Origin: a virus
Strand: one strand, 5' to 3'
Virus record (IMG/VR): IMGVR_UViG_3300036715_001783
Location: 1-64,000 of that record
DNA length: 64,000 bases
Shown here: positions 5,379 through 27,598 of the stretch, piece by piece
How the letters are laid out: each line of letters opens with the position of its first letter
How positions within the stretch are numbered: position 1 is the first letter of the stretch
Made by a program: the position numbers and the translations under genes
The notes under the pieces: generated by a model
What the model saw: only the letters and a program-made list of their open reading frames with translations
Databases searched by the model: none
Told to the model about the DNA's origin: nothing

Positions 5379-6758
5379 ATGCCACAACCACAAATAAAAG
5401 CATTAGCAAAAAAACGCAATACTGCCGTAACAGAATCTGAAAGCAGATGGAAAAAAGCACATAAAACTGCTATTAGAGAAGGTAAAGGTGATAACCTTGC
5501 TTATGTTACAAGTATCTACAAAAAAATGATGGGTGAAAGCTTTTCTAATGTAAGCTTGAAACAATTCTTAGCATTATCTGAAATGACAAATGATGTTGGA
5601 GATATTAGTTATAGCTCAAGAGATGATTTAGCATCAGATCACCAAGACAATCTTGACGACGAAGACAATCTTGACGACGAAGACGAGTTTGGTGATGAAG
5701 ACCAGGGCGAATTCGATGACGAAGACGAGTTCGGTGATGAAGACGAGTTCGGTGATGAAGACGAGTTCGGTGATGAAGACCAGGGCGAGTTCGGTGATGA
5801 AGACGAGTTCGGTGATGAAGATGGTTATGACGGTGAAGATGGTGAATTGGGCCATAAATTAGCTGGTATTGTTGACAGTAGCCGTGGGAACTTTGGTGAA
5901 AGTGCGTCTCCTAAAACATTCTTACAATCATTGAATAGAATCAATGAAGGTAAAGCAGCTAAGAAGAAAAAACCATCTATTAAAAAAGCAGCAAAGTCTG
6001 TATATCACCGTGACTATGTAAAAACCAAGAAAAAACCATATAGACAATATGATCCAAGTCAAATCAACGAAGGTCCAATGGATTATTTGAAAGGTGTGGG
6101 ACAACATATTGGTGGTAGAATTGCTTCAAAGATGGAACAACGTGGTAGACAAACTATGCAACCAATTCTAGCTGCTCATGCTGCTGGGAAACAAGCAAGT
6201 GCTCAAGGAGACAGACGTAAGTCAGAAAAGAGTACGCAAGAATGGAATACTCGCTGTCAAAATGCTTTATTGCCAACTGTTGCAGAATTAGGTAGAACTA
6301 TGGTTGATTTATATAATGCTGAAAAAGGTACAAAACAAGGTACAAATGAAGGTGTTATGGATTACATGAGAGGTGCTAGAGGTGCTGTCGGTGGTGCTGC
6401 TAGAGGTGCTGCAAGTTCAGTCAGAGGTGCAGCAGGACAAGCAGGACAAGCAGTTTCAGGAGCTGCAAGACAGATGGGAGATGCTGCTATGGGTGCTGCA
6501 GGCCAAGTTGGACGTTCAGCGCAACAAGCTGGAGGTGCAATTAAAGGTGCAGTTCAAAATGTACATCAACAAGGTCGTGCTAGTGATTTAGCAAGTCAAA
6601 AAACAATGTTAATGACTCGCTTGTGTAAAATATCAAAAGCATTGGGGCCACAAGTTGTACTTAAAGCAATGTCGTCTACATTTGCATCACGCCACATTAA
6701 TTTGTATAACAAAATGAAAAAAGAATTTACTGCAGCTTGCCAACAACAGCAAGGTTAA
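5379..6758 (+). CDS. Late acidic low-complexity protein, probable virion internal protein
   Basis: CATAAATA upstream; DEDEFG repeats; repeated (I/T)NEG motifs. Confidence 0.55.
   Translation: MPQPQIKALAKKRNTAVTESESRWKKAHKTAIREGKGDNLAYVTSIYKKMMGESFSNVSLKQFLALSEMTNDVGDISYSSRDDLASDHQDNLDDEDNLDDEDEFGDEDQGEFDDEDEFGDEDEFGDEDEFGDEDQGEFGDEDEFGDEDGYDGEDGELGHKLAGIVDSSRGNFGESASPKTFLQSLNRINEGKAAKKKKPSIKKAAKSVYHRDYVKTKKKPYRQYDPSQINEGPMDYLKGVGQHIGGRIASKMEQRGRQTMQPILAAHAAGKQASAQGDRRKSEKSTQEWNTRCQNALLPTVAELGRTMVDLYNAEKGTKQGTNEGVMDYMRGARGAVGGAARGAASSVRGAAGQAGQAVSGAARQMGDAAMGAAGQVGRSAQQAGGAIKGAVQNVHQQGRASDLASQKTMLMTRLCKISKALGPQVVLKAMSSTFASRHINLYNKMKKEFTAACQQQQG
5643..5822 (+). repeat. Coding tandem repeats of GAAGACGAGTTCGGTGAT (DEDEFG)
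   Basis: Visible 18-bp units with variants. Confidence 0.85.
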
Positions 6759-6811: not shown

Positions 6812-7135
6812 ATGACAACAAAATCACTTTGGATTGATGACATTCGAACACCAGACAATCCTGATCAATATGATATTGCCCGCACTTATGATGAGGCAAT
6901 TGATTTTCTTTCAAAAAATAAGTATAATACAATTTTCCTAGATCATGATCTTGCTGATTTTAAAGATGGTAAAGAGCGGACAGGATATACAATTGTGTTG
7001 TGGTTAGCAGAACGAGCCCACAATGGCTTATATGTACCGCATGAATATAAATTTCTAACAGCTAATCCTGTTGGACGAAGAAATATGGCAGCGGTAATCG
7101 AAAAATACTTAACAAAAGAGGAATCATCAATATGA
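6812..7135 (+). CDS. Cyclic-phosphate-processing receiver-domain protein
   Basis: LWIDDIR.P, IFLDHDL, TGY, TANPVGR motifs. Confidence 0.75.
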   Translation: MTTKSLWIDDIRTPDNPDQYDIARTYDEAIDFLSKNKYNTIFLDHDLADFKDGKERTGYTIVLWLAERAHNGLYVPHEYKFLTANPVGRRNMAAVIEKYLTKEESSI

Positions 7136-9710: not shown

Positions 9711-10826
9711 ATGGAAGTATACGTTTGTGGGGGAGCCGTTCGTGACGTGTTGATTGGAATTAAACCTAAAGACATTGATTATGTGGTAGTTGGTGCAACA
9801 CCTGAAGATATGGTAGCTCATAATTTCACTCAAGTTGGAATTGATTTTCCAGTATTTCTGCATCCGAAAACGGGTGATGAATACGCATTAGCGCGGGTTG
9901 AAAGAAAGACAGGAGTTGGATACACAGAATTTGACTGTAATACAAATGGCATTACATTAGAAGAAGATTTGAGTCGTAGAGACTTAACAATGAATGGTAT
10001 GGCAGTTCATATTGATGATTGGGAAACATTTGTTGAAACTGGATCCACTTGTTTATTAATTGATCCATTTCATGGATATGATGACATTATATCCAGAACA
10101 ATTCGACACATTGGACCTGCTTTCAGTGAAGACCCAATTCGGGTATTGCGGGCAGCAAGATTCAGTGGAAGATACGGTTTTGATATTTGTGCTCATACAA
10201 AAGTGTTAATGGCTGATGTGGTACAAGAATTAAACACTATATCCACTGATCGTATCTGGACTGAGTTTCAGAAAGGATTGGGTGAACAATATGCTTACAG
10301 AATGATTGAAGTATTAGAACAGGTTGGAGCATTTGATGTTGATATTATGTGTCCATTTAAGCAAGAACAAGAAGTAGATTTGTTTAATGGAAACGATCGG
10401 GTATTATCAATGAAATACTCACCAGTGAATATTCCTGTCAGATTTGCAATCATGGGTCAGCATTTTGACGAAACAACATTCAAGTCTCACCGCATCCCGA
10501 ATGACTGTGTCAAGTTGACTATGGCTGTTCAAAAGCATGGGACAACCTTAGTAAAATTTGATGAGCAACCAAAAGAGGTGCGGTTGAATATTATTGAACA
10601 GCTGAGAGCTGTTAATAGTTCTGAGTTTGTGGATACGGTATTCACTACATTAATGGTAATGAGTGGTAACTCGTTAGAAGGTCCAAGGCACCAATTTGCC
10701 CGTGATGTGAATGTGATTAGACATATTGGTTCTGATGGAACTATTGAACAAATTATAGCTGATACGCCAAAAGGTTCTGATATTAAACAAAAAATCAAAG
10801 AAGCTCGGTTAGCGGTTATGGATTAA
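9711..10826 (+). CDS. cca: tRNA nucleotidyltransferase (CCA-adding enzyme)
   Basis: GGAVRD..G..PKDIDYVV, EYALAR.E, EDL.RRDLT.N, EDP.RVLRAARF. Confidence 0.95.
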   Translation: MEVYVCGGAVRDVLIGIKPKDIDYVVVGATPEDMVAHNFTQVGIDFPVFLHPKTGDEYALARVERKTGVGYTEFDCNTNGITLEEDLSRRDLTMNGMAVHIDDWETFVETGSTCLLIDPFHGYDDIISRTIRHIGPAFSEDPIRVLRAARFSGRYGFDICAHTKVLMADVVQELNTISTDRIWTEFQKGLGEQYAYRMIEVLEQVGAFDVDIMCPFKQEQEVDLFNGNDRVLSMKYSPVNIPVRFAIMGQHFDETTFKSHRIPNDCVKLTMAVQKHGTTLVKFDEQPKEVRLNIIEQLRAVNSSEFVDTVFTTLMVMSGNSLEGPRHQFARDVNVIRHIGSDGTIEQIIADTPKGSDIKQKIKEARLAVMD

Positions 10827-12206: not shown

Positions 12207-12981
12207 CAAAAAATACGGGTAGATCACGATAACCAGATTCCCATTTCGCTATACGTTGATATAATTCTTCTAATGTGATCATTGAGTGTTTACGTGATTT
12301 GTTGATGGTCCAAGGAACCAATTCAGCGTTAGCTGGATGAGACATGATATTGGGGTCGATATTATTACTAAATCCATCTTGGATTCTGTATAAATGATCC
12401 CAAGATAGTCCTGTAGGGTTGTATAGTCCTTTGTTTGAGGGAGTATACCACCCAAATTTGGATATTAGTGTGGAATTAAATAGCTGTGGGTGTTCTTTTT
12501 TGTTTATATTAAATTTACAAAGTGCTCGATATCTTATTTTACCATTTTTGGTTATATTGCAGGTTGGATGACAAAAGATGTGATTTTTGGAATTGGATAC
12601 AAATATTGAGTCACACGTGGGACACGTCTTGGAAATCTTGGGTTTAGGAATATATGTTCCATATGATTTGTTTTTTGTAGTTGGATTGTCAAAATGTATA
12701 GTTCCGAGTTTCTTGCGCCAGGTATTTTGGGTTTTAAAAATAAAGTTTGGATCTCTTGTATTATTAGTATATGTTGCAGAACAAGAAGAGTTGCAAAATT
12801 GTTGAGTTTTCTTCTCGTACGGTAAAGGAGAATCACACTGTTTACAGTAATTTAGATTTTTATTATATAATAATATTCTATCAGCTTTACTTTGAATAGT
12901 TTCTGGGTGTTTGGTAGTTTTGTGGCGATGCATCGCTTTATACGATTGATGTGATGAACCACAAGTTGGGCAGTTAAACAT
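12175..12981 (-). CDS. Zn-finger/HNH-like homing endonuclease; 3' end overlaps tRNA-Ala
   Basis: C2H2 and FC..SC motifs; SWDH....GF.NNI.P.IMSHPAN; CATAAATA promoter upstream. Confidence 0.75.
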   Translation of the reverse strand: MFNCPTCGSSHQSYKAMHRHKTTKHPETIQSKADRILLYNKNLNYCKQCDSPLPYEKKTQQFCNSSCSATYTNNTRDPNFIFKTQNTWRKKLGTIHFDNPTTKNKSYGTYIPKPKISKTCPTCDSIFVSNSKNHIFCHPTCNITKNGKIRYRALCKFNINKKEHPQLFNSTLISKFGWYTPSNKGLYNPTGLSWDHLYRIQDGFSNNIDPNIMSHPANAELVPWTINKSRKHSMITLEELYQRIAKWESGYRDLPVFFVEMTGYDPAT

Positions 12982-13320: not shown

Positions 13321-13388
13321 CAAAATTTATCCACAGTTGATTTTAAATGATAATTGTGTATAATGTATTAAATGAGTTAAACAAATAT

Positions 13389-13471
13389 AACTGCTGCACT
13401 GACAACCTAGGGTTACTTCACGCTTCTTAGAAGGCGTCACCCCCCCTTAATTGTTAATAATTAGCTCAGTT
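13389..13471 (+). ncRNA. Short Y-RNA-like gene 1 (no tRNA domain)
   Basis: AACTG-CTGCA...GGGTTACTTC-hairpin...CCC...TAGCT-CAGTT, same scaffold as the other four copies. Confidence 0.6.
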
Positions 13472-13474
13472 TAT

Positions 13475-13546
13475 TCCATCCAATGCACAAGGTGTGCAGA
13501 CTGACTGTTAATCAGTTCGAGCCGGGTTCGATTCCTGGGGATGGAG
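13475..13546 (+). tRNA. tRNA-Asn(GTT), atypical (A8-A9, D-loop CAAGGTG)
   Basis: TCCATCC/GGATGGA-G; ACTGA-CTGTTAA-TCAGT. Confidence 0.8.
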
Positions 13547-13640
13547 CAAAATGGTTATTCGGCGCTTACGTTGATGTCGTAGAGTGTACAGACACAGATA
13601 AGTGTAGGTTAAACGCCTGGCGCGTCGCTAACCATTTTAT

Positions 13641-13712
13641 TCCGAGGTAGTTCAGCGGTAGAACATCGCACTGTTAATGCGCTTGTCGGGGGGTCGATCC
13701 CCTCCCTTGGAG
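13641..13712 (+). tRNA. tRNA-Asn(GTT)
   Basis: TCCGAGG/CCTTGGA-G; CGCA-CTGTTAA-TGCG. Confidence 0.88.
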
Positions 13713-13734
13713 CTTAATAAAAAGGAGTTATATA

Positions 13735-14259
13735 ATGGTTGTTATTAATATTTTTGGTGCTCCTGGTAGTGGTAAATCAACGGCTGCAGCTGGTTTATTT
13801 CATTTAATGAAATTATCTGGATTTTCAGTGGAGCTTGTTACAGAATATGCAAAAGATATGGTTTGGGAAGAAAGAGGTAATATTTTCACGGACCAATTGT
13901 ATATGTTAGCTAAACAAAATCGTAAGTTGTTGCGATTGGATGGTAAGGTTGAATATGTTATTACTGATTCGCCTATCATAATGAGTGAAGCATATGTTAA
14001 TGATACACCTTACAGGGATACATTAACACAGTTGATTAAAGAAGTGTTTTTGAGTTATAATAACATCAATATCTTCATTAATAGAAGTCATGAATATCAA
14101 GAAATTGGTAGAAATCAGACAAGTGAAGAAGCAATGGAATTAGCAACACAAATTAAAACATTGTTAGTTAAACATGATGTTGAGTTTACAGAGTTTGATT
14201 CAGATAAAGTTACGCCAGAAGGATTATTATCCCACTTGTTGACATTATTTGAGAAATGA
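13735..14259 (+). CDS. NadR/Ttd14-like (AAA_28) P-loop kinase
   Basis: INIFGAPGSGKST, VTEYAK, ITDSP, GRNQ. Confidence 0.8.
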   Translation: MVVINIFGAPGSGKSTAAAGLFHLMKLSGFSVELVTEYAKDMVWEERGNIFTDQLYMLAKQNRKLLRLDGKVEYVITDSPIIMSEAYVNDTPYRDTLTQLIKEVFLSYNNINIFINRSHEYQEIGRNQTSEEAMELATQIKTLLVKHDVEFTEFDSDKVTPEGLLSHLLTLFEK

Positions 14260-14295
14260 GTATAATACTCCGCATAAGTTAGTAAAAGATTAAAA

Positions 14296-14368
14296 GCCAC
14301 ATTAGCTCAATTGGTAGAGCAGTTGATTTGTAATCAACAGGTTGGGGGTTCGAAGCCTCTATGTGGCT
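14296..14368 (+). tRNA. tRNA-Thr(TGT)
   Basis: Canonical, GTTGA-TTTGTAA-TCAAC. Confidence 0.92.
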
Positions 14369-14372
14369 CAAA

Positions 14373-14518
14373 TGCAGTTGCAACAAGAAGAGTTACTTCA
14401 CTGTTAATGAAGTGGTCCGGGTTCGATTCCTGGGTTCTCCGCAAAATGTTTTACTTTTGGAGAATTGATGTAAATTGGGAGCACACTAAAAATCTCTCTT
14501 CTTAATTTTATCTCTGCA
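14373..14518 (+). ncRNA. Y-RNA-like gene 2 (YrlA-type permuted tRNA domain with Asn GTT loop)
   Basis: TGCAG/CTGCA terminal stem; GTTACTTCA-CTGTTAA-TGAAG; T arm, closed acceptor GTTCTCC/GGAGAAT, then D arm. Confidence 0.75.
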
Positions 14519-14545
14519 ATTTTTTAATAATAACAGGAGACAAAA

Positions 14546-14767
14546 ATGTCTAGTATGTTACAAGAAACCCCAGAAAATATTCTTGAATATGTTGGGTTAA
14601 TTGGTAAGAAAGTTAGAAAGGCAAAAAAACCCTTTTTATCGGGATTACAAATTAACACAGTTAAGGGTATTGTTATTGAGCAACACATTAACCGATATGG
14701 TTTTATTTTTGAAGAGGACGAATCGGTGGTTGAGTGTTGGCGTTGTGTTGGAGTTGATGATGAATGA
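14546..14767 (+). CDS. Hypothetical phage protein
   Basis: RBS AGGAG; KPF.SG...NTVKG motif. Confidence 0.6.
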   Translation: MSSMLQETPENILEYVGLIGKKVRKAKKPFLSGLQINTVKGIVIEQHINRYGFIFEEDESVVECWRCVGVDDE

Positions 14768-14918
14768 GCCAGGATTGAAGTGGGTTAATCATTCAGAATT
14801 GATGAAACTATCTCGTGATAGAGACGACAAGAAAATTGATTATGAGCTAGTAGCTTGGCCTACAGCTAATTCGCCTTACTTACTAAAGTTTTGTATTAAG
14901 GTGAAGTAAAAAGAATAT

Positions 14919-15052
14919 GTGGTTGCAATTTTGAGAGATACTTCGCCTATTAAGCGGGTGGCCGGAGGTTCGAGTCCTTCCAATATCAGTAATGATGTTG
15001 TAGCTCAGTTGGTTAGAGCACCTAAAACCTCTCTCGATAACTTTATCTCCAC
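14919..15052 (+). ncRNA. Y-RNA-like gene 3 (permuted tRNA domain, ATT loop)
   Basis: GTGG-TTGCA...GATACTTCGC-CTATTAA-GCGGG; GGAGG-TTCGAGT-CCTTC; AATATCA-GTAA-TGATGTT; GCTC-AGTTGGTTA-GAGC; ...TATCT-CCAC. Confidence 0.8.
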
Positions 15053-15071
15053 TAATATATTATAACGAAAC

Positions 15072-15207
15072 AAGCCGTTGCAAAGTATAGACATACTTCA
15101 AACAATCTGAAGGTCGCAGGTTCGAATCCTGCTCACTTATACGTAGGTGGTAACTCAGTCGGTAGAGTGTCTGACAATAAAAGAGTCTGTGCAATTATAT
15201 CTCGGTT
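15072..15207 (+). ncRNA. Y-RNA-like gene 4 (permuted tRNA domain)
   Basis: AAGCCG-TTGCA...CATACTTC; GCAGG-TTCGAAT-CCTGC; TCACTTA-TACG-TAGGTGG; ACTC-AGTCGGTA-GAGT; ...TATCT-CGGTT. Confidence 0.8.
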
Positions 15208-15211
15208 TATT

Positions 15212-15284
15212 TGGTAGAGAGCCTGTGGTGGCTAGGCGCTGGGATTTAATCCTTGAAGAATGTGGTTCGAATCCACATCTACCA
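15212..15284 (+). tRNA. tRNA with Gln-like acceptor and apparent TTA (ochre) anticodon
   Basis: TGGTAGA/TCTACCA; TGTGG-TTCGAAT-CCACA; weak anticodon stem CTGGG-ATTTAAT-CCTTG. Confidence 0.55.
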
Positions 15285-15319
15285 ACATTTTTACAACTAC
15301 ACAGTGGAGAGTATCGATA

Positions 15320-15633
15320 TGAATGATAACCAAATAATTGAACCCATTTCTCCTAATGACATTGATGCAGAAGCAGGAAAACAAATCCCATCTGTTGTTA
15401 TTGCAATTGTGAATACTCTATTGGCTGAAAAGTGGAAGGGGAAAAGTGCTACTATCAGACAAGATGACATCATTGAACAAATTGTTGCAAAGATGTCTGT
15501 TTCCAGAGAGTTTGTATTCCAATCCAATTGGTTGGATTTTGAAGGGTTATTTAGAAGTAAAGGTTGGAAAGTGAGTTATGAAAAGCCTTGCAGAGGTGAA
15601 AGTTTTGCAGCATTTTTCAGATTCGAAAAATAG
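15320..15633 (+). CDS. Hypothetical phage protein (start near MNDNQ)
   Basis: GGAG RBS; IP..VI..VN.L, WLD.E..F...GWKV.Y.KP. Confidence 0.6.
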
Positions 15634-15639
15634 AACAAA

Positions 15640-15755
15640 AAGCCTTGGTTGGGAATAAAATTCCTGCAGTGGTAGCACGGTGGTTCGATTCCACCTATGT
15701 CTGGACAGACTGCATAAATCCTTGGGAATATGGGGTTCAACTCCCCACAAGGCTT
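15640..15755 (+). ncRNA. tRNA-like structured RNA with two T-arm-like hairpins
   Basis: AAGCCTTG/CAAGGCTT ends; GGTGG-TTCGATT-CCACC and TGGGG-TTCAACT-CCCCA. Confidence 0.6.
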
Positions 15756-15757
15756 CT

Positions 15758-15906
15758 AAGAATGTAACACATGAAATGCCCATGTCCTGGCTGACGAGCT
15801 TACTTTTGAAATAGGTGGTACTATTTGAAGTGTAGCGCAGGGTGGTGAAGCTGGAGTACCGACTAGCTAATAAACAATGTTGGAAGCTTGCGCCCAACAC
15901 ATTCTT
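15758..15906 (+). ncRNA. Structured ncRNA candidate
   Basis: AAGAATGT/ACATTCTT ends enclosing several hairpins; GC-richer than flanks. Confidence 0.5.
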
Positions 15907-16156
15907 TTCAAATATTAGGAGATACGCCGTGACCGATTTAAGCACATTAGAATTAACAGTTGGAGTTACACATCCACGTCATCCAAAATGTAAGGGTGAA
16001 GGTTATACTGATCATGATGGGAACACTGAGTATGATTGTGGATATAATACCACTATTGAATGTGATGAATGTAAGTATTGTTTACATGATGATGGTCGCC
16101 CAGTGGGCAGAAAAGATCCAGCTGCAAAATGTAATCAAATGAAATAGGAGTTCAAA

Positions 16157-16447
16157 ATGTTTGGAGATGCTATATTTCAAGATGGTTATGGTGATGGATC
16201 TGGTGATGGATCTGGTGATGGATCTGGTGATGGTTGGAGTAGAGAAGATGATTATTGTTCATTTCAGTTATCCAATAACACATTTGTTAGAGACCCATTA
16301 TATTATCACAGTTGGTTTAAGTTTAAAGAAATAAGAGAAGAGACTGAAAAAGCTTACCTTATTAAAATTAAAGGATATAAACCATTTTGGGTAGCAAAGT
16401 CGTTGATTAAAAGAAAGAATGATAGTAAAATATTAGTTCATACGTAG
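16157..16447 (+). CDS. GDGS-repeat phage protein
   Basis: GYGDGSGDGSGDGSGDG; ETEKAYL motif. Confidence 0.6.
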   Translation: MFGDAIFQDGYGDGSGDGSGDGSGDGWSREDDYCSFQLSNNTFVRDPLYYHSWFKFKEIREETEKAYLIKIKGYKPFWVAKSLIKRKNDSKILVHT

Positions 16448-16512
16448 ATATTTACAAAATGCTTAAAAGAACATAAAAAGGTCAAGAAGTTAAAAATAGT
16501 GAATCGACCATT

Positions 16513-16591
16513 TCTACGGTAATGTCAACCTGGTAACAATGGGTGGGGTGAAATCTTATTCATATTGTGGGTTCAAATCCCACCCGTAGAG
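16513..16591 (+). tRNA. Atypical tRNA, extended anticodon stem, GAA (Phe) loop
   Basis: TCTACGG/CCGTAGA-G; GTGGG-TTCAAAT-CCCAC; TGGGTGGG-GTGAAAT-CTTATTCA. Confidence 0.55.
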
Positions 16592-16606
16592 CACAAAAAG
16601 TATTAT

Positions 16607-16681
16607 ACTCCACTAGCTCAATTGGTTAGAGCGTCCAACTCATAATTGGAGGGTTCTGGGTTCAAGTCCCAGGTCGGAGTA
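16607..16681 (+). tRNA. tRNA-CAT (Ile2 or elongator Met)
   Basis: TCCAA-CTCATAA-TTGGA; 1-nt bulge in the acceptor stem. Confidence 0.8.
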
Positions 16682-16762
16682 CAAAGTAGGGAGTCAAGAT
16701 GATAACTTGAAACAGCTGCATTAATCAGCATCAGCTTCCCTATTAATTTTAATTATTAGGAG

Positions 16763-17086
16763 ATGAATATGAGTGAACGACACCCATACACAGTTATTAT
16801 TGAAGGAGATGAGGGCGATGGTGATTATATCACTCACGAATTTGCTGCAACTGATGTTGATATGGCCTTATTGGTTAAATTTGTGGAATTAGCTAGACCA
16901 TTAAGAGGTAAGTTTCTTATTGGTGATTGTAGAATTAATGGGTCTAATCCAGAAGATATATATCCATCTTTGACGACCATTGAATTAGAACGACTTGCTG
17001 ATATGTTCCCTTGTGGCGAACATGGAATACACCAAGTTCGATCTATTAAATTTGCACCCATTGTTAACTGGGTGGAAATGTTATAA
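16763..17086 (+). CDS. Hypothetical protein
   Basis: ORF with RBS. Confidence 0.5.
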   Translation: MNMSERHPYTVIIEGDEGDGDYITHEFAATDVDMALLVKFVELARPLRGKFLIGDCRINGSNPEDIYPSLTTIELERLADMFPCGEHGIHQVRSIKFAPIVNWVEML

Positions 17087-17094
17087 CCAAATAT

Positions 17095-17172
17095 AAACTG
17101 TTGCACTGCACCGAAGGGTTACTTCACATATAATGAAACCAAACACCCTTTACCGCAATTATATCTCAGTTT
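17095..17172 (+). ncRNA. Short Y-RNA-like gene 5 (no tRNA domain)
   Basis: AAACTG-TTGCA...AAGGGTTACTTCA-CATATAA-TGAA...CCCTT...TATCT-CAGTTT. Confidence 0.65.
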
Positions 17173-17175
17173 TAT

Positions 17176-17247
17176 TCCAGCTAAATCACAAGGTGTGATA
17201 CTCGACTGTTAATCGATTTAAGCCAGGTTCGATTCCTGGAGTTGGAG
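17176..17247 (+). tRNA. tRNA-Asn(GTT), atypical (paralogue of 13475)
   Basis: TCCAGCT/AGTTGGA-G; D-loop CAAGGTG; TCGA-CTGTTAA-TCGA. Confidence 0.8.
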
Positions 17248-17272
17248 CATACATTAATTTTAGGAGACACAA

Positions 17273-17614: not shown

Positions 17615-18340
17615 ATCATTTAATAGCGCAAGCAATTGTAGTTGCAGTTGTAATATTTTTACTGTACAAAGGAGCAAAAAACGCTCCATTGCAAATTACA
17701 CCTAAACCACAAAAAACCGAATCAAAATTGTTACCAGTATTTTTTGCGTCTGGTGGTGGACAGACAACTCCTATTCATTTTACAAGTTTGGAAGAATTAA
17801 GAACTCATCCAATGTTTGATATTTGGAACAGTGAGTATGTGCTTAAACAACCCGAAGACAGTGTTAGTGTTTTCATGGTAAAAGAGGGCGATGAAGTATC
17901 TGAAGGTACAGTGGTCGGTTGGTTAGTTGAAATATCAACTAAACGATATTTTTCATAATATAACGATCATTGGTGCAGCACATCTGTTAAACCAAGCTGG
18001 TTTGAGTCCAGAGGCCAATGTTAGTTAATTTTTCAATTTTTAGGAGATATTATATGTGGTTTTTAGTTTGGATTTTAGTAACAACAGTTGGTGGGTTTTA
18101 CTTTGGGCTTGATGTTGCTCCACCAGGGTCTGGTATGGAATGGGTTGGGGCAATTGTAGGCTTTGTGGTTGGGTTGTTGTTGTGGGTAATGTTTAAAGCT
18201 GCTTCTGGCGAATCACTTGGAGATGCATTTGGTAGCATCGGTGAATCATTTGGTGGTGATGGTTTTGGTGATGGTGGCGGTGATTAGTTCAACACATTAC
18301 TTTTATAATTAGGAGATGCAAATGCATAAGTAAAAAATCG

Positions 18341-18775
18341 ATGATACTTCTAGCCTTGGTTAGTGTTGTGACAGTATTAAGTGGGTGTAAACCAGACCAA
18401 CGATTTGACCATAGTACTTCAACCGCTGGTGCTCGAACATATGTGCAGTTTATCACAACAGTATTGGGGTGTTCCATTTACAAAGTGGTTGTTGAAGGTC
18501 CTACGTCAGATTTGTTTATCACTGTGTGCGACGACTCAACAAAAGCCTCTGCAGTTTCTTATATGAGTGGCAAGACTCCAGTGCATGTGGTATCAGGAAA
18601 TACCCCATCTCCAACATCCACCGTGGTTCCCACCACGGTGGATACTTCATTGGATTTTAGCACAGAAGAAAAGAAAGTATTAGACCAAGCAGACCAAATC
18701 CGTCACAAGTTTGAAATATTAGATAGGTTGTCCACAGAAGACAAGGCAACTTTAGGATTTGCAGTAAAAAAATAG
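18341..18775 (+). CDS. Lipoprotein
   Basis: VLSGC lipobox. Confidence 0.6.
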   Translation: MILLALVSVVTVLSGCKPDQRFDHSTSTAGARTYVQFITTVLGCSIYKVVVEGPTSDLFITVCDDSTKASAVSYMSGKTPVHVVSGNTPSPTSTVVPTTVDTSLDFSTEEKKVLDQADQIRHKFEILDRLSTEDKATLGFAVKK

Positions 18776-19824: not shown

Positions 19825-20568
19825 ATGAATCGTCCAGCATTATATGTTCAAGCAGCTCCTTACAATAACAATTTAGCATTTGACTTTTGTTACTCAGCAA
19901 AGTTAGGAGCACAGGAAGCTGGAATTGAAGTATCTCATTTTGCCAACATTGTTGATGTTCCTCCTTCTCCATATAATATCATTGTGGGTTCTGTTGAAGT
20001 ATGTACACAATGGTTGGCTCAATCTAGTTTTACTGTTCCCCCTGTAATAGATCTATTATTATTTAAAGATTTCCTTGGAAGACAAGTTGAAGTCTTGCCT
20101 ATTTCCCAAGTCAACATTCCCGCCTTTATTAAACCTGCTTATCAACACAAAGCATTCACGGGCTTCATTGCTGATAGCAACTTAGCATTAGCAGTATGGA
20201 GTGAGGGATTTCAAGGTGACGTAATTTCACAACAAATCATCGATATTAAAAGCGAATATCGCATGTATATCAATTGCCAAAAGATTATTGGAATGAAACA
20301 CTATAGTGGGGATTGTCTTTTGTTTCCCAATAGCCAGTTCATTACGTCTTGTGTTGAAAAATCATATGAATTGTTGGATAATCATTCGTATACTCTTGAT
20401 TTTGGAGTATTAGAAGATGGGACAACTGTCCTTATTGAACCAAATGATGGGTGGGCTGTAGGAAATTATGGTTTGGACCCACTTGACTATTATTATTTTG
20501 TTCGTAATAGATGGTTACAATTAACAGGTGTACGAACACGAATGGAGCATAATTTACATGGCAGATAA
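19825..20568 (+). CDS. ATP-grasp (R2K/DUF4343-like) protein
   Basis: FIKP...KAFTG, SEYR, YTLDFG, LIE.NDG.A.G.YGL. Confidence 0.8.
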   Translation: MNRPALYVQAAPYNNNLAFDFCYSAKLGAQEAGIEVSHFANIVDVPPSPYNIIVGSVEVCTQWLAQSSFTVPPVIDLLLFKDFLGRQVEVLPISQVNIPAFIKPAYQHKAFTGFIADSNLALAVWSEGFQGDVISQQIIDIKSEYRMYINCQKIIGMKHYSGDCLLFPNSQFITSCVEKSYELLDNHSYTLDFGVLEDGTTVLIEPNDGWAVGNYGLDPLDYYYFVRNRWLQLTGVRTRMEHNLHGR

Positions 20569-21533: not shown

Positions 21534-21971
21534 ATGTCAATACCAAAACAAGTAATAGTTATGAGAACTGATTTAAGAAATCAGGAAGGACATAAAATTA
21601 GAACTGGAAAATTAATTGCCCAAGGAGCGCATGCGTCCATGAAGGCAATTTTAGATGTTGGAACTGTTGTTCGCACGCATCCACAAGAAGATAATCAAAT
21701 GTTAATAATTGATATTACACCAGCACATTATCCTGAACGGTATGGGTGGCTAACAGACAAATTCACAAAAGTGTGTGTTAGTGTTAAGTCTGAAGAAGAA
21801 TTATTAGCAATACATCAAGCAGCAGTAGATGCTGGTATTAAATGCACGTCTTTAATATTGGACGCTGGGTTAACAGAATTTGGTGGAGTTGCAACATATA
21901 CTTGTTGTGCAATAGGACCAGATTTCCCAGAAAATATCGATCCCATTACATCCCATTTGAAGTTATTTTGA
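21534..21971 (+). CDS. pth2: Peptidyl-tRNA hydrolase 2
   Basis: KQVIVMR.DL, GK..AQ..HA, KV.V, DAG.TE, T..AIGP, IT..LKL. Confidence 0.92.
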   Translation: MSIPKQVIVMRTDLRNQEGHKIRTGKLIAQGAHASMKAILDVGTVVRTHPQEDNQMLIIDITPAHYPERYGWLTDKFTKVCVSVKSEEELLAIHQAAVDAGIKCTSLILDAGLTEFGGVATYTCCAIGPDFPENIDPITSHLKLF

Positions 21972-22446: not shown

Positions 22447-22929
22447 ATGAATAATGATCTGTATACTTTCTTTTGGTCAGGAATGTTTTCACAGTGGTAT
22501 GCGTCTCCATTTAAAGTAGATGGAATTCAATACAATTGTGCAGAACAATTCATGATGCACAGTAAAGCCCTGATGTTTGAGGACTATGAGACTGCTGAAT
22601 TAATTATGAATACCCCTAACCCAAAAATTCAAAAGCAATTAGGTAGGCAAGTAAAGAATTTTAATGCTGATAGTTGGAATGCAGTGGCAAAAACTGTGGT
22701 GTATATTGCTAATATTGCAAAATTCACACATAGTCCGACCCTGTTAGAAGCATTATTGGCAACAGGAGATACTTTATTGGTTGAAGCATCTCCATATGAT
22801 ACCATTTGGGGCATTGGGATGGGTGAAGTAGAAGCAAGAAAAAGCACCAAAGAACAGTGGAGAGGAACTAATTGGTTGGGAGAAGTTCTTACTGCTGTTA
22901 GAGACGATATTCGTTCTGATACAGTGTAA
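22447..22929 (+). CDS. NADAR (YbiA-like) protein
   Basis: FSQWY, AEQFMM..KA..F.D, LGR.VKNF, LVEASPYD.IWGIG, G.NWLG..L. Confidence 0.92.
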   Translation: MNNDLYTFFWSGMFSQWYASPFKVDGIQYNCAEQFMMHSKALMFEDYETAELIMNTPNPKIQKQLGRQVKNFNADSWNAVAKTVVYIANIAKFTHSPTLLEALLATGDTLLVEASPYDTIWGIGMGEVEARKSTKEQWRGTNWLGEVLTAVRDDIRSDTV

Positions 22930-23737: not shown

Positions 23738-25273
23738 ATGCACATGTCTAAACTTAACAAAGCACCAAAGAAAGTAACCAAAACTGTTGCAGTAGTTGCT
23801 GCAAAACACAATCTAACAGTTGCACATTCAGCAAACGGCAATCTACAGTTCAAAAAAGAACCACTGCAACATTTGTATGAGTTAACTGTATCCACGTTGT
23901 TTGGTAGATCAACATTTTACCGTTCAAGTGATGCATTAGTACAAAGCTTACGAACAGAAGTACGGACTGCTGTTGAAATGGGTGCTCTTGATTTTGTCGC
24001 AAATCTTGCTATCCATGCAAGAGGTGAGATGAATATCAGAACAATTCCGATTGTTTTGGTTGTTGAATTTGCTAAAGCATTGCGTGAACAAGGTAAAACG
24101 TATCCACACTTAAGACACTTGGTTAGAGACGTTATTCAACGTGCTGATCAGATTACTGATATGTATGCTTATTCTCTTGACGTATTTGGAGAAAAAGGTA
24201 AAATCCCTATGGCCATCAAACGAGGTGTTGGTGATGCCTTCAATAATTTCGGTGAATATGCTTTTGCAAAATACAACAGAGCTGGTGCAATCACCATTAA
24301 AGACGTGTTGCGAATTGTTCACCCTGTGGCAAACGAAGCTAAACAAGGTGCTATTTTTCAAAAAATCATTGATGAGAACCTGGAAACTCCATACACTTGG
24401 GAAACAGAACTGTCAAGAAACGGCCAATTACCAGAAGCTGAGCGTAAAAGCAAAGCAAAATTATGGACTGAGTTGTTGACTTCGGAAAAATTGGGATACA
24501 TGGCACTGTTAAGAAACATGCGAAATATTCACGATGCAGGCGTGGCACACAATGTGGTTAAGACACATGTTGCTGATATTATTGCTGATGAACAACGAGT
24601 TGCTGCTTCAAGACAGCTTACGTTTGATTTTTTGCAGGCCTATGATGTGATCAAACCTCTGAATTCCAGTATGGCTACTGCAGTATCAAAAGCTGTGGAT
24701 ATCAGTGTTAAGTACTTACCAAAAGTTGGTGAAAAAATTTGGGTAATTATTGATTACTCAGGCTCTATGAGTGGTAAAGCAATTGAAACAGCAACGTTGT
24801 TGGCAGCAGCATTATTGAAAGCCAATGATGGATCAGAACGGTTAGCTGTAACTATGTTTGGTTCAGCAGCAAAGACCATTCATACTGTGGACACAAATAA
24901 CTCTGTGTTAGCTATCCAAAGAGAGTTGTTAACCCACCGTAGAGGGAACATTGCAGGCTCTACAGAGTTTCAAGCGGCAATGAGAGAATACCCAGGTTTA
25001 GGCTTTGTGCCTGATACCATCGTTGTGTTTACAGATGGCGAAATTAACAGATTTCACTACCCTGATTTGCAAAAAAATTCAGGCGATTCTAACACAGTTA
25101 AACTGGTAGTTAATTTAGATGGAGCACCAACTACTCCATTCATTAAACAAGCTGGATGGTATGCAATGGCTGGCTGGACTCCTGCCATGTTTAAGTGGGT
25201 GCCTGCAATTAGAAACAAAGAAACTGTAGTGGATGCTTTATCTGGTCCATACACAGAACGAAAATCTAAGTAA
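23738..25273 (+). CDS. rsr: Ro60/Rsr (TROVE plus vWA) RNA-binding protein
   Basis: LA..AR..MN.R, QRAD, F..Y...KY, KDVLR.VHP, TWETELS, LGYMALLRN.RN, D.SGSM, FTDGE. Confidence 0.93.
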   Translation: MHMSKLNKAPKKVTKTVAVVAAKHNLTVAHSANGNLQFKKEPLQHLYELTVSTLFGRSTFYRSSDALVQSLRTEVRTAVEMGALDFVANLAIHARGEMNIRTIPIVLVVEFAKALREQGKTYPHLRHLVRDVIQRADQITDMYAYSLDVFGEKGKIPMAIKRGVGDAFNNFGEYAFAKYNRAGAITIKDVLRIVHPVANEAKQGAIFQKIIDENLETPYTWETELSRNGQLPEAERKSKAKLWTELLTSEKLGYMALLRNMRNIHDAGVAHNVVKTHVADIIADEQRVAASRQLTFDFLQAYDVIKPLNSSMATAVSKAVDISVKYLPKVGEKIWVIIDYSGSMSGKAIETATLLAAALLKANDGSERLAVTMFGSAAKTIHTVDTNNSVLAIQRELLTHRRGNIAGSTEFQAAMREYPGLGFVPDTIVVFTDGEINRFHYPDLQKNSGDSNTVKLVVNLDGAPTTPFIKQAGWYAMAGWTPAMFKWVPAIRNKETVVDALSGPYTERKSK

Positions 25274-26398: not shown

Positions 26399-27598
26399 AT
26401 GGCTGAATTTGAAGTAAAAATACAAAGAATTTATATTACTGAACACCCCAATGCAGATAGCTTACATATTGGACATATTGGCTCCCCTGATGGTTGGCAG
26501 GTTGTTGTTCGTAAGGGAGCATTTGCAGATCAATCTTTATGTGCATACATTGGAGAGAATGCAATTGTTCCTGATGAGATTTTACAAAAGTACAATTATT
26601 GGAACGAAGACCAAAATAAAGGTATGTTGGCTGGAAGTAAAGGTAACCGGGTCAAGATGATCAAACTCAGAGGAGAGCCCAGTATGGGCATATGTATTCC
26701 TCTGATTGAAGAATGTAGTTGGGACGAAGAGGGAGGCACTCAATTATACGCACACACCCTTGAAGGAGAATATGTAATTGAAGGAGAGGTTGTTACAGAA
26801 TTGTTGGGTGTATACAAACACGAGCCACCAATCCCAGTTGCGATGGCAGGTGAAGTCTACAACGGTGGTACTTCTATTGGTGTGAGTTACGATATTGAGA
26901 ACTCCAAAAACTATCCAAATGTGTTTACTGAAGGTGAAGAAGTACAAGCAACTGAAAAATTGCATGGCTCGTTTTGTCAGATTGTGGTACTACCACCAAC
27001 AGACGAATTTTACAATGAAAATCATGGAGTAGGATTAGCAACCTCCGGAAAAATGGCATACATAGCTGTCTCCAGCAAAGGACTAGGGTCAAAAGGCTTG
27101 TTTCTTAAGCAGAACGAGAAAAATAACAACAATGTGTATCTCCGAGTAGCAAGACCATTGTACAGTACTCTCACAAGTGCTACGGAACAATTGTCAGATC
27201 CACTTGTACCAATCACTGTGTGTGGAGAAGTATTTGGGCATGGAGTGCAAGACTTAACATATGGGTTTTCTCAGGGCAATGTTGGGTTCAGAGTGTTTGA
27301 TGTCTATGTGGGATGTCGTGGAATGGGATATTGGTTAAACGACGAAGAATTGGACGAGTGGTGTGCATTCACCTGTATTCCTCGAGTACCACTCTTATAC
27401 AGAGGGCCATTTAATCTTGAGAAAATCAATGAGTTGTCCCAGAATACCCATTCTACATTTGATAAGAAACAAATACTTGAAGGGCTGGTGGTTAAATCAA
27501 CGAAAGAGCGATTAGTTCATAATTTAGGTAGAGCGTGTTTGAAATACATTAATATTGCTTATTATTTACGTAAGGGCAATGCCACAGAGTTTAATTAA
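26399..27598 (+). CDS. ATP-dependent RNA ligase (DRB0094 family)
   Basis: N-terminal HPNAD.L tRNA-binding-like domain, KLRG..S.G, TEKLHG, GE.FG.GVQ, F.VFD, EG.V, LK.I...Y. Confidence 0.92.
   Translation: MAEFEVKIQRIYITEHPNADSLHIGHIGSPDGWQVVVRKGAFADQSLCAYIGENAIVPDEILQKYNYWNEDQNKGMLAGSKGNRVKMIKLRGEPSMGICIPLIEECSWDEEGGTQLYAHTLEGEYVIEGEVVTELLGVYKHEPPIPVAMAGEVYNGGTSIGVSYDIENSKNYPNVFTEGEEVQATEKLHGSFCQIVVLPPTDEFYNENHGVGLATSGKMAYIAVSSKGLGSKGLFLKQNEKNNNNVYLRVARPLYSTLTSATEQLSDPLVPITVCGEVFGHGVQDLTYGFSQGNVGFRVFDVYVGCRGMGYWLNDEELDEWCAFTCIPRVPLLYRGPFNLEKINELSQNTHSTFDKKQILEGLVVKSTKERLVHNLGRACLKYINIAYYLRKGNATEFN

What the first reader, a model, noticed from the sequence alone, without database searches (positions are those of the whole stretch)
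13389..17172. Five Y-RNA-like genes, some retaining anticodon loops, interleaved with tRNAs upstream of a phage Ro60
Seen: five elements (13389, 14373, 14919, 15072, 17095) share stem-(T/C)TGCA...stem-TACTTC-hairpin...stem...TA(T/G)CT-stem. Three carry a circularly permuted tRNA (T arm, acceptor stem closed by a loop, D arm). Copies 2 and 3 keep a 7-nt anticodon loop after TACTTC (CTGTTAA = Asn GTT; CTATTAA = ATT). Their 5-bp anticodon stem is completed by bases after the D arm, so the tRNA is opened within the 5' anticodon strand. The short copies carry CATATAA or CTTAGAA-like loops. Established: YrlA-type Y RNAs bind Rsr/Ro60 and mimic tRNA, typically without an anticodon loop. Inference: these are non-chargeable, anticodon-displaying RNAs on Ro60 that could act as decoys or sensors for anticodon nucleases, or gate Ro60-dependent RNA repair.
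Basis: partly seen in the sequence, partly recalled or inferred. Interest (0 to 1): 0.85.

Follow-up and report, generated by a model that had tools for sequence, protein, structure and literature searches.

The report
Phage Y RNAs with anticodon arms
Five small RNA genes in this phage's tRNA cluster are partner RNAs (Y RNAs) of the phage's Ro60 protein, and three are inside-out tRNA look-alikes that still display a tRNA anticodon hairpin, which described bacterial Y RNAs lack; about a hundred relatives beside Ro60 genes share this, so something probably reads the anticodon loop.

Summary
All five elements share one handle: a terminal stem, YUGCA opposite UAKCU, a second stem, then WUACUUC. 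E2 to E4 carry a permuted tRNA body (T arm, 7-bp acceptor stem closed by a loop, D arm). E1 and E5 are short, and each abuts an atypical tRNA-Asn gene.

A covariance model built here finds 111 distinct relatives in phage contigs, MAGs and cultured phages. They nearly always sit in arrays directly upstream of a TROVE/Ro60 gene on the same strand. None reaches Rfam's YrlA cut-off.

In 52 of 95 relatives with a tRNA body, a 5-bp stem with a 7-nt loop lies exactly where a tRNA anticodon arm would. U33 is present in 81%, a purine at 37 in 98%. The middle triplet differs between copies and changes about 2.4 times faster than the rest.

Best reading: a divergent YrlA/YrlB branch that kept the anticodon arm, bound by phage Ro60 within an RNA-repair island. 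A decoy or sensor role against anticodon nucleases is plausible but untested. "Non-chargeable" is doubtful family-wide, because many relatives keep N73-CCA.

Earlier agents of this scan noted the same family and the same loop feature on other DNA. I rate it a new variant of a known kind.

The parts
13389..13471 (+). E1, short Y RNA (handle plus small hairpin, no tRNA body)
   Evidence: Motifs CTGCA 13394, TTACTTC 13413 and TAGCT 13462. Fold. A promoter-like site lies at 13337-13364.
13475..13547 (+). Atypical tRNA-Asn(GUU)-like gene abutting E1 (compact D arm, U1-G72, C73)
   Evidence: ARAGORN; no Rfam tRNA hit on this strand at E<=10. Fold z = -3.1. It is duplicated together with E1, with compensatory stem changes.
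14296..14369 (+). tRNA-Thr(UGU) ending 3 nt before E2, behind a consensus promoter-like site at 14239-14266
   Evidence: Co-transcription with E2 is inferred.
14373..14518 (+). E2, long Y RNA: handle plus permuted tRNA body with an Asn-type anticodon arm (loop 14401-14407 CTGTTAA). The acceptor stem has 7 bp and is closed by an 18-nt loop.
   Evidence: Model R1 96 bits; Rfam tRNA partial hit 25.6 bits; fold; stretches shared with tRNA-Asn genes; acceptor analysis.
14918..15053 (+). E3, long Y RNA: handle plus permuted tRNA body. The anticodon-type loop is 14947-14953 CTATTAA. Its stem is CC (after the D arm) plus CGC, paired with GCGGG.
   Evidence: R1 104.6 bits; Rfam YrlA 34.6 bits.
15073..15207 (+). 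E4, long Y RNA: handle plus permuted tRNA body. It has a 5-bp hairpin with a 7-nt loop, 15101-15107 AACAATC, that is not anticodon-like. The acceptor stem is capped by a UACG tetraloop.
   Evidence: R1 93.7 bits; Rfam YrlA 33.9 bits.
15212..15286 (+). tRNA with a UUA anticodon, starting 5 nt after E4
   Evidence: ARAGORN; Rfam tRNA 35.5 bits.
17095..17172 (+). E5, short Y RNA (handle plus a 4-bp hairpin with loop 17127-17133 CATATAA)
   Evidence: Motifs; fold; alignment with E1.
17176..17248 (+). Second atypical tRNA-Asn(GUU)-like gene, abutting E5
   Evidence: ARAGORN; Rfam tRNA 30 bits; fold z = -2.6.
23738..25273 (+). Ro60/Rsr-type protein (TROVE plus vWA), the presumed protein partner
   Evidence: Pfam TROVE 1.8e-23 and VWA_2 1.4e-7. 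A TROVE gene is linked to this RNA family in 14 of 15 viral contigs tested and lies adjacent in more than 25 loci.
26399..27598 (+). RNA ligase with an N-terminal OB domain (context: RNA-repair island)
   Evidence: Pfam RNA_ligase 6.9e-23 and PHA02142 OB 3.7e-11.
9711..10826 (+). CCA-adding-type nucleotidyltransferase (context)
   Evidence: Pfam PolyA_pol head 1.4e-16 plus its RNA-binding domain.

Best explanation
The five elements are genes for Y RNAs of a divergent, mostly phage-borne branch of the YrlA/YrlB family, the partner RNAs of the phage's Ro60 (TROVE plus vWA) protein. All share a handle: a terminal stem, a conserved internal loop (YUGCA opposite UAKCU), a second stem, and conserved junction strands (WUACUUC on the 5' side, YUAAAAY on the 3' side). 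In E2 to E4 the handle is grafted onto a complete tRNA shape. That shape has a T arm, a 7-bp acceptor stem closed by a loop, a D arm and an anticodon arm. The anticodon stem is built from positions 27-28 (just after the D arm) and 29-31 (just after UACUUC), so the handle leaves the tRNA body as a side branch of the 5' strand of the anticodon stem. E1 and E5 are handle-only forms, each made next to an atypical tRNA-Asn. Shown here: the structure with covariation, the linkage to Ro60, and the anticodon-loop geometry with a fast-changing triplet. Inferred: Ro60 holds the handle, and the tRNA-shaped head offers an anticodon loop to a factor that reads anticodons. I think that factor is most likely a host anticodon nuclease, so the RNP would act as a competitive decoy or as a damage sensor for the neighbouring RNA-repair genes (RNA ligase, CCA-adding enzyme, cyclic-phosphate receiver, PTH2). 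My odds: Y RNA identity 0.9; real anticodon arm 0.85; loop read by some anticodon-recognising factor 0.55; nuclease decoy or sensor specifically about 0.3. The overall confidence given (0.5) is for the statement as a whole, up to 'read by an anticodon-recognising factor'.
For: Structure: RNAalifold on 9 copies recovers five helices, and 21 of 26 pairs show compensatory changes. On 56 distinct copies, 89.8% of cells are paired against 43-48% when partners are slid; 25 of 26 pairs change on both sides; the covariation score is 0.72 against 0.10-0.16.

Family: model R1 finds 111 distinct elements in viral contigs, MAG contigs and the cultured phages Xanthomonas MET23-P3, Caulobacter CcrPW and Streptomyces BRock.

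Ro60 linkage: 14 of 15 viral contigs carrying the RNA encode TROVE, against 0 of 5 contigs that only matched the pattern by chance. In more than 25 loci the TROVE ORF lies directly downstream on the same strand.

Anticodon arm: 29 of 49 junctions give a 5/5-bp stem with a 7-nt loop. Other loop lengths give 6-12, and shuffles give a mean of 3.1 and a maximum of 9. In the full set the figure is 52 of 95, with U33 in 42 of 52, R37 in 51 of 52 and A38 in 44 of 52. Bases 27-28 after the D arm pair with 42-43 in 40 of 76 elements, against 5-19 when slid, using more than 12 pair types.

Triplet: copies carry many different triplets (UUU, GUU, UCC, UAG, GCU and others). Among 31 related pairs the triplet differs at 0.39 per site, against 0.16 at the other loop positions and 0.16 elsewhere. 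The trio L019, L025 and L133 is 89-94% identical yet carries GCU, UCC and UUU.

Context: cREC_REC, a CCA-adding enzyme, PTH2, NADAR, Ro60 and an RNA ligase lie on one strand.

Literature: YrlA binds Rsr and mimics tRNA (PMC4201824). A phage Ro60 binds phage Y-like RNAs (PMC12135203). YrlA has been proposed as a competitive inhibitor of an anticodon nuclease (PMC7790460). The Ro60-like gp130 of phage Bas63 counters a defence system and sits beside tRNA genes (PMC11482910).
Against: There are no expression, end-mapping or binding data for this phage, and no RNA run holds the stretch.

The published Rsr-binding motif GNCGAAN0-1G is absent from all five elements, so the Ro60 contact site is assumed from its position.

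In the window the RNAs lie 6.6-10.3 kb from Ro60, not within the 4 kb used in the literature.

Only 2 of the 5 window copies have a true anticodon-type loop, and about 45% of relatives with a tRNA body lack a clean 5-bp/7-nt arm.

Loop sequences may partly reflect recent descent from tRNA genes: E2 shares exact stretches with the phage's tRNA-Asn genes.

No anticodon nuclease or host is known for this phage. The related pairs used for the rate comparison are not independent. The alignments used for pair counts were fitted to the model.
Confidence: 0.5

Rival explanations
1. Evolutionary relic. The RNAs are ordinary Ro60-tethering Y RNAs, for example for PNPase. The anticodon arm is only a leftover of their birth from tandem tRNA genes, with T arm and anticodon arm from the upstream tRNA and D arm from the downstream one. 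The loop would then have no function of its own.
For: The layout fits the dimeric-tRNA origin model quoted in bioRxiv 10.1101/312249. In 19 of 58 acceptor loops, N-CCA or CCA still sits where a tRNA 3' end would be. E2 shares 11 and 18 exact bases with neighbouring tRNA-Asn genes. Some copies lack the hairpin (L018, L047:4537). A phage Ro60 with its Y RNAs binds host PNPase in vitro (PMC12135203).
Against: U33, R37, A38 and the 7-nt loop length are kept across copies that otherwise differ at most positions, while only the triplet varies. A relic should decay evenly. Close orthologues swap the triplet but keep the frame.
Confidence: 0.2
2. Processed two-piece tRNAs. RNase P and 3' trimming or CCA addition open the acceptor loop. 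This gives a Ro60-held split tRNA with a free CCA end and a real anticodon, which may be aminoacylated or bound by its synthetase. The ligase next to Ro60 might even seal the nick at 28/29 after the handle is removed.
For: The acceptor-like stem has exactly 7 bp in 50 of 77 copies, and U8-A9 follows in 52 of 77. N73-CCA or CCA is encoded in 19 of 58 loops, against 1.7 expected. M. smegmatis YrlA is cut by RNase P and gains CCA in vivo while bound to Rsr (PMC4201824). The phage encodes a CCA-adding enzyme and a ligase of the RNA_ligase (PF09414) family. E2's loop is 18 nt and begins with G73.
Against: E3 and E4 close the stem with only 6 and 4 nt, and several relatives have UUCG, UACG or GCAA caps, which leaves no leader. 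No cut sites flanking the handle are evident. A tRNA carrying a 20-bp side branch plus Ro60 is unlikely to enter a ribosome (inference).
Confidence: 0.12
3. Tether to other anticodon readers. The head recruits an aminoacyl-tRNA synthetase or an anticodon-loop modification enzyme to Ro60, or titrates it, rather than a nuclease.
For: The evidence is the same loop geometry and triplet diversity. Y RNAs are known tethers between Ro60 and an effector, and the conserved tRNA elbow of YrlA has been proposed as a protein-binding site (10.1101/312249).
Against: The fast turnover of the triplet between close relatives fits a conflict better than binding to conserved housekeeping enzymes. No such enzyme is conserved next to the arrays.
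Confidence: 0.15
4. Not Y RNAs at all. The elements are decayed tRNA genes, or tandem tRNAs misread as permuted mimics.
For: They sit in a tRNA cluster. ARAGORN calls the 5' part of two relatives (L022:1742-1809 and L047:5032-5099) tRNA-Asn. Chen et al. warn that dimeric tRNAs can score as YrlA (PMC4201824).
Against: The handle stems covary strongly. The handle also occurs without any tRNA part (E1, E5, L040:1954-2018). The family tracks TROVE genes. No full tRNA flanks E3 or E4 in the way a dimer artefact would need.
Confidence: 0.02

Closest known systems
YrlA (Y RNA-like A; Rfam RF02553; S. Typhimurium, M. smegmatis, mycobacteriophages; Chen et al. 2014 PMC4201824; structure in bioRxiv 10.1101/312249)
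   Same: It is encoded with a Ro60/Rsr gene on the same strand. It has a stem module with the RNA ends plus a permuted tRNA-like head in the order T arm, closed acceptor-like stem, D arm. The core tRNA tertiary nucleotides are kept (U8, G18G19, the 15:48 pair, GTTCRA). Some members have a 7-bp acceptor stem and an RNase P/CCA history. Multiple Y RNAs per locus occur.
   Different: Published YrlA 'lacks the anticodon loop': its anticodon stem simply runs on into the Rsr-binding module. Here a 7-nt anticodon-type loop is kept, and the handle branches off the 5' strand of the anticodon stem between positions 28 and 29 (or 29 and 30). The GNCGAAN0-1G motif is replaced by YUGCA, and WUACUUC is a new invariant. 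Rfam scores are 33-52 bits against a cut-off of 69. Arrays hold up to 5-6 copies with different triplets. The stem-loop that Chen et al. call 'V' may be the same hairpin, read differently.
YrlB and other short Y RNAs (Salmonella, M. smegmatis; Yrl1/Yrl2 of Thermus phage phiLo bound by phage Ro60, PMC12135203)
   Same: E1 and E5 are short Y RNAs that share the handle of the long forms but lack the tRNA body. They are encoded in the same cluster.
   Different: They have no CGAA-type bulge motif; only E5 contains CGAA at all. Each abuts an atypical tRNA-Asn gene. E5 caps the handle with a 4-bp hairpin and a 7-nt loop.
D. radiodurans Yrn1
   Same: Chen et al. model a possible 'anticodon arm' with a 5-bp stem in this Y RNA (PMC4201824).
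   Different: The Yrn1 loop has 6 nt, the arm order differs, and no D arm or V region is evident. Here the arm has tRNA geometry and sits 4-5 nt before the T stem.
Circularly permuted tRNA genes (Cyanidioschyzon merolae) and split tRNAs (Nanoarchaeum); recalled from my own knowledge plus the mention in 10.1101/312249
   Same: The 3' half of the tRNA is encoded before the 5' half. The acceptor ends are joined by an intervening loop, sometimes with CCA. A helix formed by the transcript ends sits at the junction.
   Different: Those are precursors of working tRNAs, processed at a bulge-helix-bulge motif by the archaeal/eukaryal splicing endonuclease. No such motif or enzyme is evident here, many acceptor caps are tetraloops, and the elements track Ro60.

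Membership tests
YrlA (Rfam RF02553 / Chen et al. 2014) | Permuted tRNA-like domain: T arm, then a closed acceptor-like stem-loop, then a D arm, inside a stem formed by the RNA ends | tested here: met
   E2-E4: folds, Rfam YrlA alignment of E3 and E4, covarying helices. E1 and E5 lack the domain.
YrlA (Rfam RF02553 / Chen et al. 2014) | Score at or above Rfam's gathering cut-off (69 bits) | tested here: not met
   E3 scores 34.6, E4 33.9, and E2 has no YrlA hit. No relative reaches the cut-off in 12 viral loci. In the cultured-phage loci the best score is 52.3.
YrlA (Rfam RF02553 / Chen et al. 2014) | GNCGAAN0-1G motif near the 5' end (presumed Rsr contact) | tested here: not met
   There is no match in any of the five elements; YUGCA occupies the equivalent place.
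YrlA (Rfam RF02553 / Chen et al. 2014) | Encoded within 4 kb of the Ro60 orthologue, on the same strand | tested here: inconclusive
   In the window the strand is the same but the distance is 6.6-10.3 kb. In more than 25 homologous loci the array lies directly upstream of TROVE on the same strand, and 14 of 15 contigs encode TROVE.
YrlA (Rfam RF02553 / Chen et al. 2014) | No anticodon loop: the anticodon stem continues into the Rsr-binding module | tested here: not met
   E2 and E3 keep 7-nt anticodon-type loops, as do 52 of 95 relatives with a tRNA body. The handle joins through 6-7-nt single strands.
Y RNA in general | Bound by Ro60/Rsr in vivo | not testable with these tools
   Only genomic linkage is available. 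No RNA data exist.
tRNA gene | Cloverleaf with free 5' and 3' acceptor ends, scoring above the Rfam tRNA cut-off or called by ARAGORN | tested here: not met
   E2-E4 are not called by ARAGORN. The Rfam tRNA hits are partial, at 25.6 and 22 bits against a cut-off of 29. The acceptor stem is closed and the order of the arms is permuted.
Permuted tRNA precursor genes (C. merolae type) | Bulge-helix-bulge motif at the junction of the transcript ends, and processing into a working tRNA | not tested
   No bulge-helix-bulge motif was looked for in a formal way. Tetraloop caps in E4 and several relatives argue against opening of the acceptor stem.

The most novel reading that the evidence does not exclude
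Phage Ro60 particles carry a panel of exchangeable anticodon baits. Each Y RNA in an array mimics a different tRNA's anticodon arm on a body that need not enter translation. The particle would block host anticodon nucleases, or report their attack to the adjacent repair genes. The fast swapping of the triplet between close relatives would then be the trace of an arms race with those nucleases.
Probability: 0.3. Interest if true: 0.85.

Novelty: new variant of a known kind. Interest (0 to 1): 0.64.

Why it matters
Twelve years after their discovery, it is still unknown what the tRNA-like head of bacterial Y RNAs binds. A large, Ro60-linked branch that keeps a proper anticodon arm, changes only the triplet, and comes in arrays of different 'anticodons' points to partners that read anticodon loops. 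That makes the question directly testable in cultured phages that carry the family: Xanthomonas phage MET23-P3, Caulobacter phage CcrPW and Streptomyces phage BRock.

The layout also looks like the predicted intermediate of the proposed origin of YrlA from tandem tRNA transcripts. It has the anticodon loop and T arm of one tRNA, N73-CCA and a spacer, then the D arm and the first anticodon-stem bases of the next.

On the practical side, Rfam misses these RNAs, and tRNA finders sometimes mislabel them as tRNA-Asn.

Tried and rejected
- Close relatives of the phage. blastn of the region against 50,697 phage records found only tRNA-sized matches. tblastn of Ro60 found nothing above 32% identity. 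The search for related loci with Ro60 in viral contigs found nothing. A DNA pattern search succeeded instead.
- Expression. No RNA holder is listed for the stretch. Laying contigs of four runs showed only the same phage at low depth, plus unrelated tRNAs giving false 'joints'. This is uninformative.
- MAFFT alignment of the copies misaligned the hairpin region, so the anticodon-arm statistics were computed with my own scripts rather than on the alignment.
- About 20 of the 51 viral pattern hits, and most of the 120 genome pattern hits (for example eight Acetobacterium loci), are not matched by the model. They are chance or coding matches. About 150 chance hits are expected in 596 Gb by my estimate.
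- Conserved neighbours. tblastn of 14 window proteins against all loci shows that only Ro60 recurs. The CCA enzyme, kinase, PTH2, NADAR and ligase appear once each.
- The dimeric-tRNA artefact was considered and rejected; see the rival explanations.
- I considered that UU of UACUUC, rather than bases 27-28, completes the stem. This was rejected because 42-43 covary with the post-D-arm bases (CC/GG, CG/CG, AC/GU, CU/AG and others).
- The weak R1 hit at 12786-12818 (E = 1.3) and the pattern hit at 18323-18350 were not pursued; both are probably chance.
- Two review papers (PMC10870794 and PMC6047535) and the supplements of PMC4201824 are not held. I therefore could not check whether individual phage YrlAs listed in 2014 already show this loop.

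Full report
**What is in the window.** The window is the first 64 kb of an 80.7-kb IMG/VR virus record estimated to be about 30% complete. It has 36% G+C, and DNA runs from microbial mats and sediments hold it. Between 12.1 and 18.9 kb lies a cluster of tRNA genes.

Each carries YTGCA, WTACTTC and TAKCT in the same order. The pattern TGCA-N8-20-TACTTC matches 12 times in the window against 2.15 expected, and all five elements are recovered.

Minimum-energy folds give the same plan for all five: a terminal stem, an internal loop, a second stem and a small hairpin. In E2 to E4 the folds add a T arm, a closed acceptor-like hairpin and a D arm. Rfam's YrlA model aligns E3 and E4 end to end, but at 34.6 and 33.9 bits, far below its cut-off of 69. 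For E2 the tRNA model aligns the hairpin plus T arm as an anticodon arm plus T arm.

A TROVE plus vWA protein (Ro60/Rsr type) is encoded at 23738-25273 on the same strand. E4 also has a 5-bp/7-nt hairpin, though its loop is not anticodon-like. E1's loop is 6 or 8 nt, not 7.

**A large family tied to Ro60.** No close relative of the phage is in the phage collection. A pattern made of the two motifs plus the T loop gave 51 viral loci, of which about 30 were clearly homologous.

Nine copies aligned by MAFFT already let RNAalifold recover the five helices, and 21 of 26 pairs showed compensatory changes. The covariance model R1 built from them finds only E2 to E4 in the phage's own record. Elsewhere it finds:
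- 67 hits in 35 viral loci, typically in arrays of 3-6 copies;
- 29 hits in MAG contigs;
- 27 more, including copies in the cultured phages Xanthomonas MET23-P3, Caulobacter CcrPW and Streptomyces BRock.

This gives 111 distinct sequences in all. On the 56 distinct copies of the first set, 89.8% of cells are paired against 43-48% with slid partners, and 25 of 26 pairs change on both sides. These counts come from a model-fitted alignment.

Fourteen of 15 viral contigs carrying the RNA encode a TROVE protein, against 0 of 5 contigs that matched the pattern only by chance. With an HMM built from these TROVE ORFs, more than 25 loci show the gene directly downstream of the array on the same strand. 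In L029 a block of tRNA genes lies between array and gene, as in the window. No other window protein recurs beside the arrays. None of the relatives reaches Rfam's YrlA cut-off; the best is 52 bits. This is therefore a Ro60-linked Y RNA family that the curated model does not capture.

**The anticodon arm.** Published YrlA has no anticodon loop: its anticodon stem runs on into the Rsr-binding module (bioRxiv 10.1101/312249). Chen et al. describe a poorly conserved 'V' stem-loop before the T arm (PMC4201824).

In this family the hairpin sits 4-5 nt before the T stem, the length of a class I variable loop, often of NGGUC type. I asked, for every element, whether five pairs can be formed between two parts. 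One part is the five bases before that variable loop. The other is a 5' strand made of the bases after position 26 plus the bases before a loop of given length.
- With a 7-nt loop, 29 of 49 distinct junctions give 5 of 5 pairs. Loop lengths of 4-10 nt other than 7 give 6-12. Shuffles give a mean of 3.1 and a maximum of 9.
- In the full set the figure is 52 of 95. U33 is present in 42 of 52, a purine at 37 in 51 of 52, and A38 in 44 of 52.
- Without any selection, the two bases after position 26 pair with the two bases before the variable loop in 40 of 76 elements. Slid registers give 5-19. More than 12 dinucleotide pair types are used (CC/GG, CG/CG, AC/GU, CU/AG, AU/AU and others).

E3 uses CC plus CGC against GCGGG, and E2 can use CU plus UCA against UGAAG. 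E2's loop region shares 11 exact bases with the phage's canonical tRNA-Asn. Its T arm shares 18 exact bases with the atypical tRNA-Asn at 13475.

**Triplets differ and turn over.** The loop triplets across the family include UUU (7), GUU (5), UCC (5), UAG (4), GCU, UUG, UGG and AUG (3 each), and many others. Copies within one array differ; in L038, for example, they are GCU, GAA, UAG, UUU and GUA.

Among 31 pairs of related elements (72-99% identical), the triplet differs at 0.39 per site. The other four loop positions differ at 0.16, and the rest of the RNA at 0.16. The three orthologues L019, L025 and L133 are 89-94% identical but carry GCU, UCC and UUU. These pairs are not independent, so this is an indication and not a test.

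**Acceptor end.** The acceptor-like stem has 7 of 7 pairs in 50 of 77 elements, and U8-A9 follows in 52 of 77. In 14 of 58 closing loops of at least 4 nt, the loop begins with N-CCA; in 5 more it begins with CCA. Shuffles give a mean of 1.7 and a maximum of 8.

This recalls M. smegmatis YrlA, which RNase P cuts in vivo and which gains CCA while staying on Rsr (PMC4201824). It also fits the proposed origin of YrlA from tandem tRNA transcripts (quoted in 10.1101/312249). In the window, E2 has an 18-nt loop starting with G73, E3 has 6 nt, and E4 has a UACG tetraloop. 'Non-chargeable' is therefore likely for E3 and E4, open for E2, and unsafe for the family as a whole.

**Short forms.** E1 and E5 have the handle but no tRNA body. 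Each is followed after 3 nt by an atypical tRNA-Asn(GUU)-like gene with a rod-like D arm, U1-G72 and C73. The whole module is duplicated, with compensatory changes in every stem. Short handle-only copies, some abutting tRNAs, also occur in relatives: L040:1954-2018, L011:10526-10611 and L011:257-339. They correspond to YrlB-type short Y RNAs.

**Context.** These genes lie on the same strand:
- a cyclic-phosphate receiver domain protein (6812-7135);
- a CCA-adding-type enzyme (9711-10826);
- a P-loop kinase among the RNAs (13735-14259);
- an R2K ATP-grasp protein (19825-20568);
- PTH2 (21534-21971);
- NADAR (22447-22929);
- Ro60 (23738-25273);
- an ORF with a partial gp23-like match (25303-26388);
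- an RNA ligase with an OB domain (26399-27598).

A consensus promoter-like site precedes tRNA-Thr plus E2, and another precedes E1, though such sites are not enriched overall in the region.

**Interpretation.** Three things are shown: the fold, the family and its linkage to Ro60; the anticodon-arm geometry; and the variable triplet. The rest is inferred.

I infer that Ro60 binds the handle. The site is guessed from position, because the published GNCGAAN0-1G motif is absent. I also infer that the head offers an anticodon loop to a factor that reads it. I favour host anticodon nucleases, with the particle acting as decoy or sensor, for four reasons:
- the repair-gene context;
- the triplet turnover;
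- the published suggestion that YrlA could competitively inhibit an anticodon nuclease (PMC7790460);
- evidence that a phage Ro60-like protein counters a defence system (PMC11482910).

That specific step deserves only about 0.3. The rivals are a functionless relic of tRNA origin, processed two-piece tRNAs, and tethering of synthetases or modification enzymes. They are set out in the rival explanations with their tests.

**Standing.** The elements fail several formal YrlA criteria: the Rfam score, the 5' motif and the absence of an anticodon loop. They meet the architectural one, and through their relatives they meet the Ro60-linkage one. I class them as a new variant of a known kind.

I found no paper describing anticodon-type loops on Y RNAs. 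Two reviews and the 2014 supplements could not be read.

Earlier agents of this scan reported the same UUACUUC-handle family, and the same anticodon-loop feature with fast triplet change, in other genomes. My tests here were run independently on this window's family set and agree with them.

Noticed in passing
window 15640-15757 (+): A 118-nt structured RNA candidate. An 8-bp terminal stem encloses two T-arm-like hairpins (GGTGGTTCGATTCCACC and TGGGGTTCAACTCCCCA) plus two other hairpins. The fold z-score is -2.3. It is not called by ARAGORN or by Rfam at threshold.
   Followed up: partly
window 16513-16591 (+): A tRNA-like element just below the Rfam tRNA cut-off (27 bits against 29) with an odd, long anticodon region. 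It lies directly upstream of tRNA-Met.
   Followed up: no
window 15212-15286 (+): A tRNA with a UUA anticodon (ochre-suppressor type), 5 nt after Y RNA E4. ARAGORN labels it tRNA-Stop; Rfam tRNA gives 35.5 bits.
   Followed up: no
window 13475-13547 and 17176-17248 (+); also L022:1544-1659 and L047:4837-4949: A compact D arm (5-6-bp stem with a small AAGG-containing loop) replaces the normal D arm in the two atypical tRNA-Asn genes. The same kind of arm appears in permuted Y RNA heads of distant phages, so it may be a recurring alternative module.
   Followed up: partly
window 25303-26388 (+): The ORF between Ro60 and the RNA ligase has only a partial match (residues 195-340) to the T4 gp23 major capsid family in Pfam and PHROGs. 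That is an odd place for a capsid gene. No homologue lies next to Ro60 in the related loci.
   Followed up: partly
L038:283-412 (+): In one relative the same handle encloses a non-permuted tRNA-Ser(GCU)-like body (D arm, anticodon arm, T arm in normal order), which ARAGORN calls a tRNA at 308-380. The handle can therefore be grafted onto tRNA parts in more than one topology.
   Followed up: no
L022:1742-1809 and L047:5032-5099: ARAGORN labels the 5' part of two Y RNAs as D-armless tRNA-Asn(GTT). Automatic annotation can therefore mistake members of this family for tRNA genes.
   Followed up: partly
L009, L011, L022, L026, L029 and the window: In the limited DNA held, the Y-RNA triplets mostly differ from the anticodons of the real tRNA genes nearby (for example Ser-GCU in L009 and Lys-CUU in L011). 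The exceptions are Asn in the window and Gln in L029. The sample is too small and the loci too incomplete to draw a conclusion.
   Followed up: no
L179 (Bacteroides phage crAss001) 5810-6716: A 900-nt gene-free gap lies downstream of the crAss001 TROVE gene. It holds a weak R1 hit (5904-5990, 26.5 bits) and a long Rfam tRNA-model hit (6084-6227). These may be partner RNAs of a different handle type.
   Followed up: no
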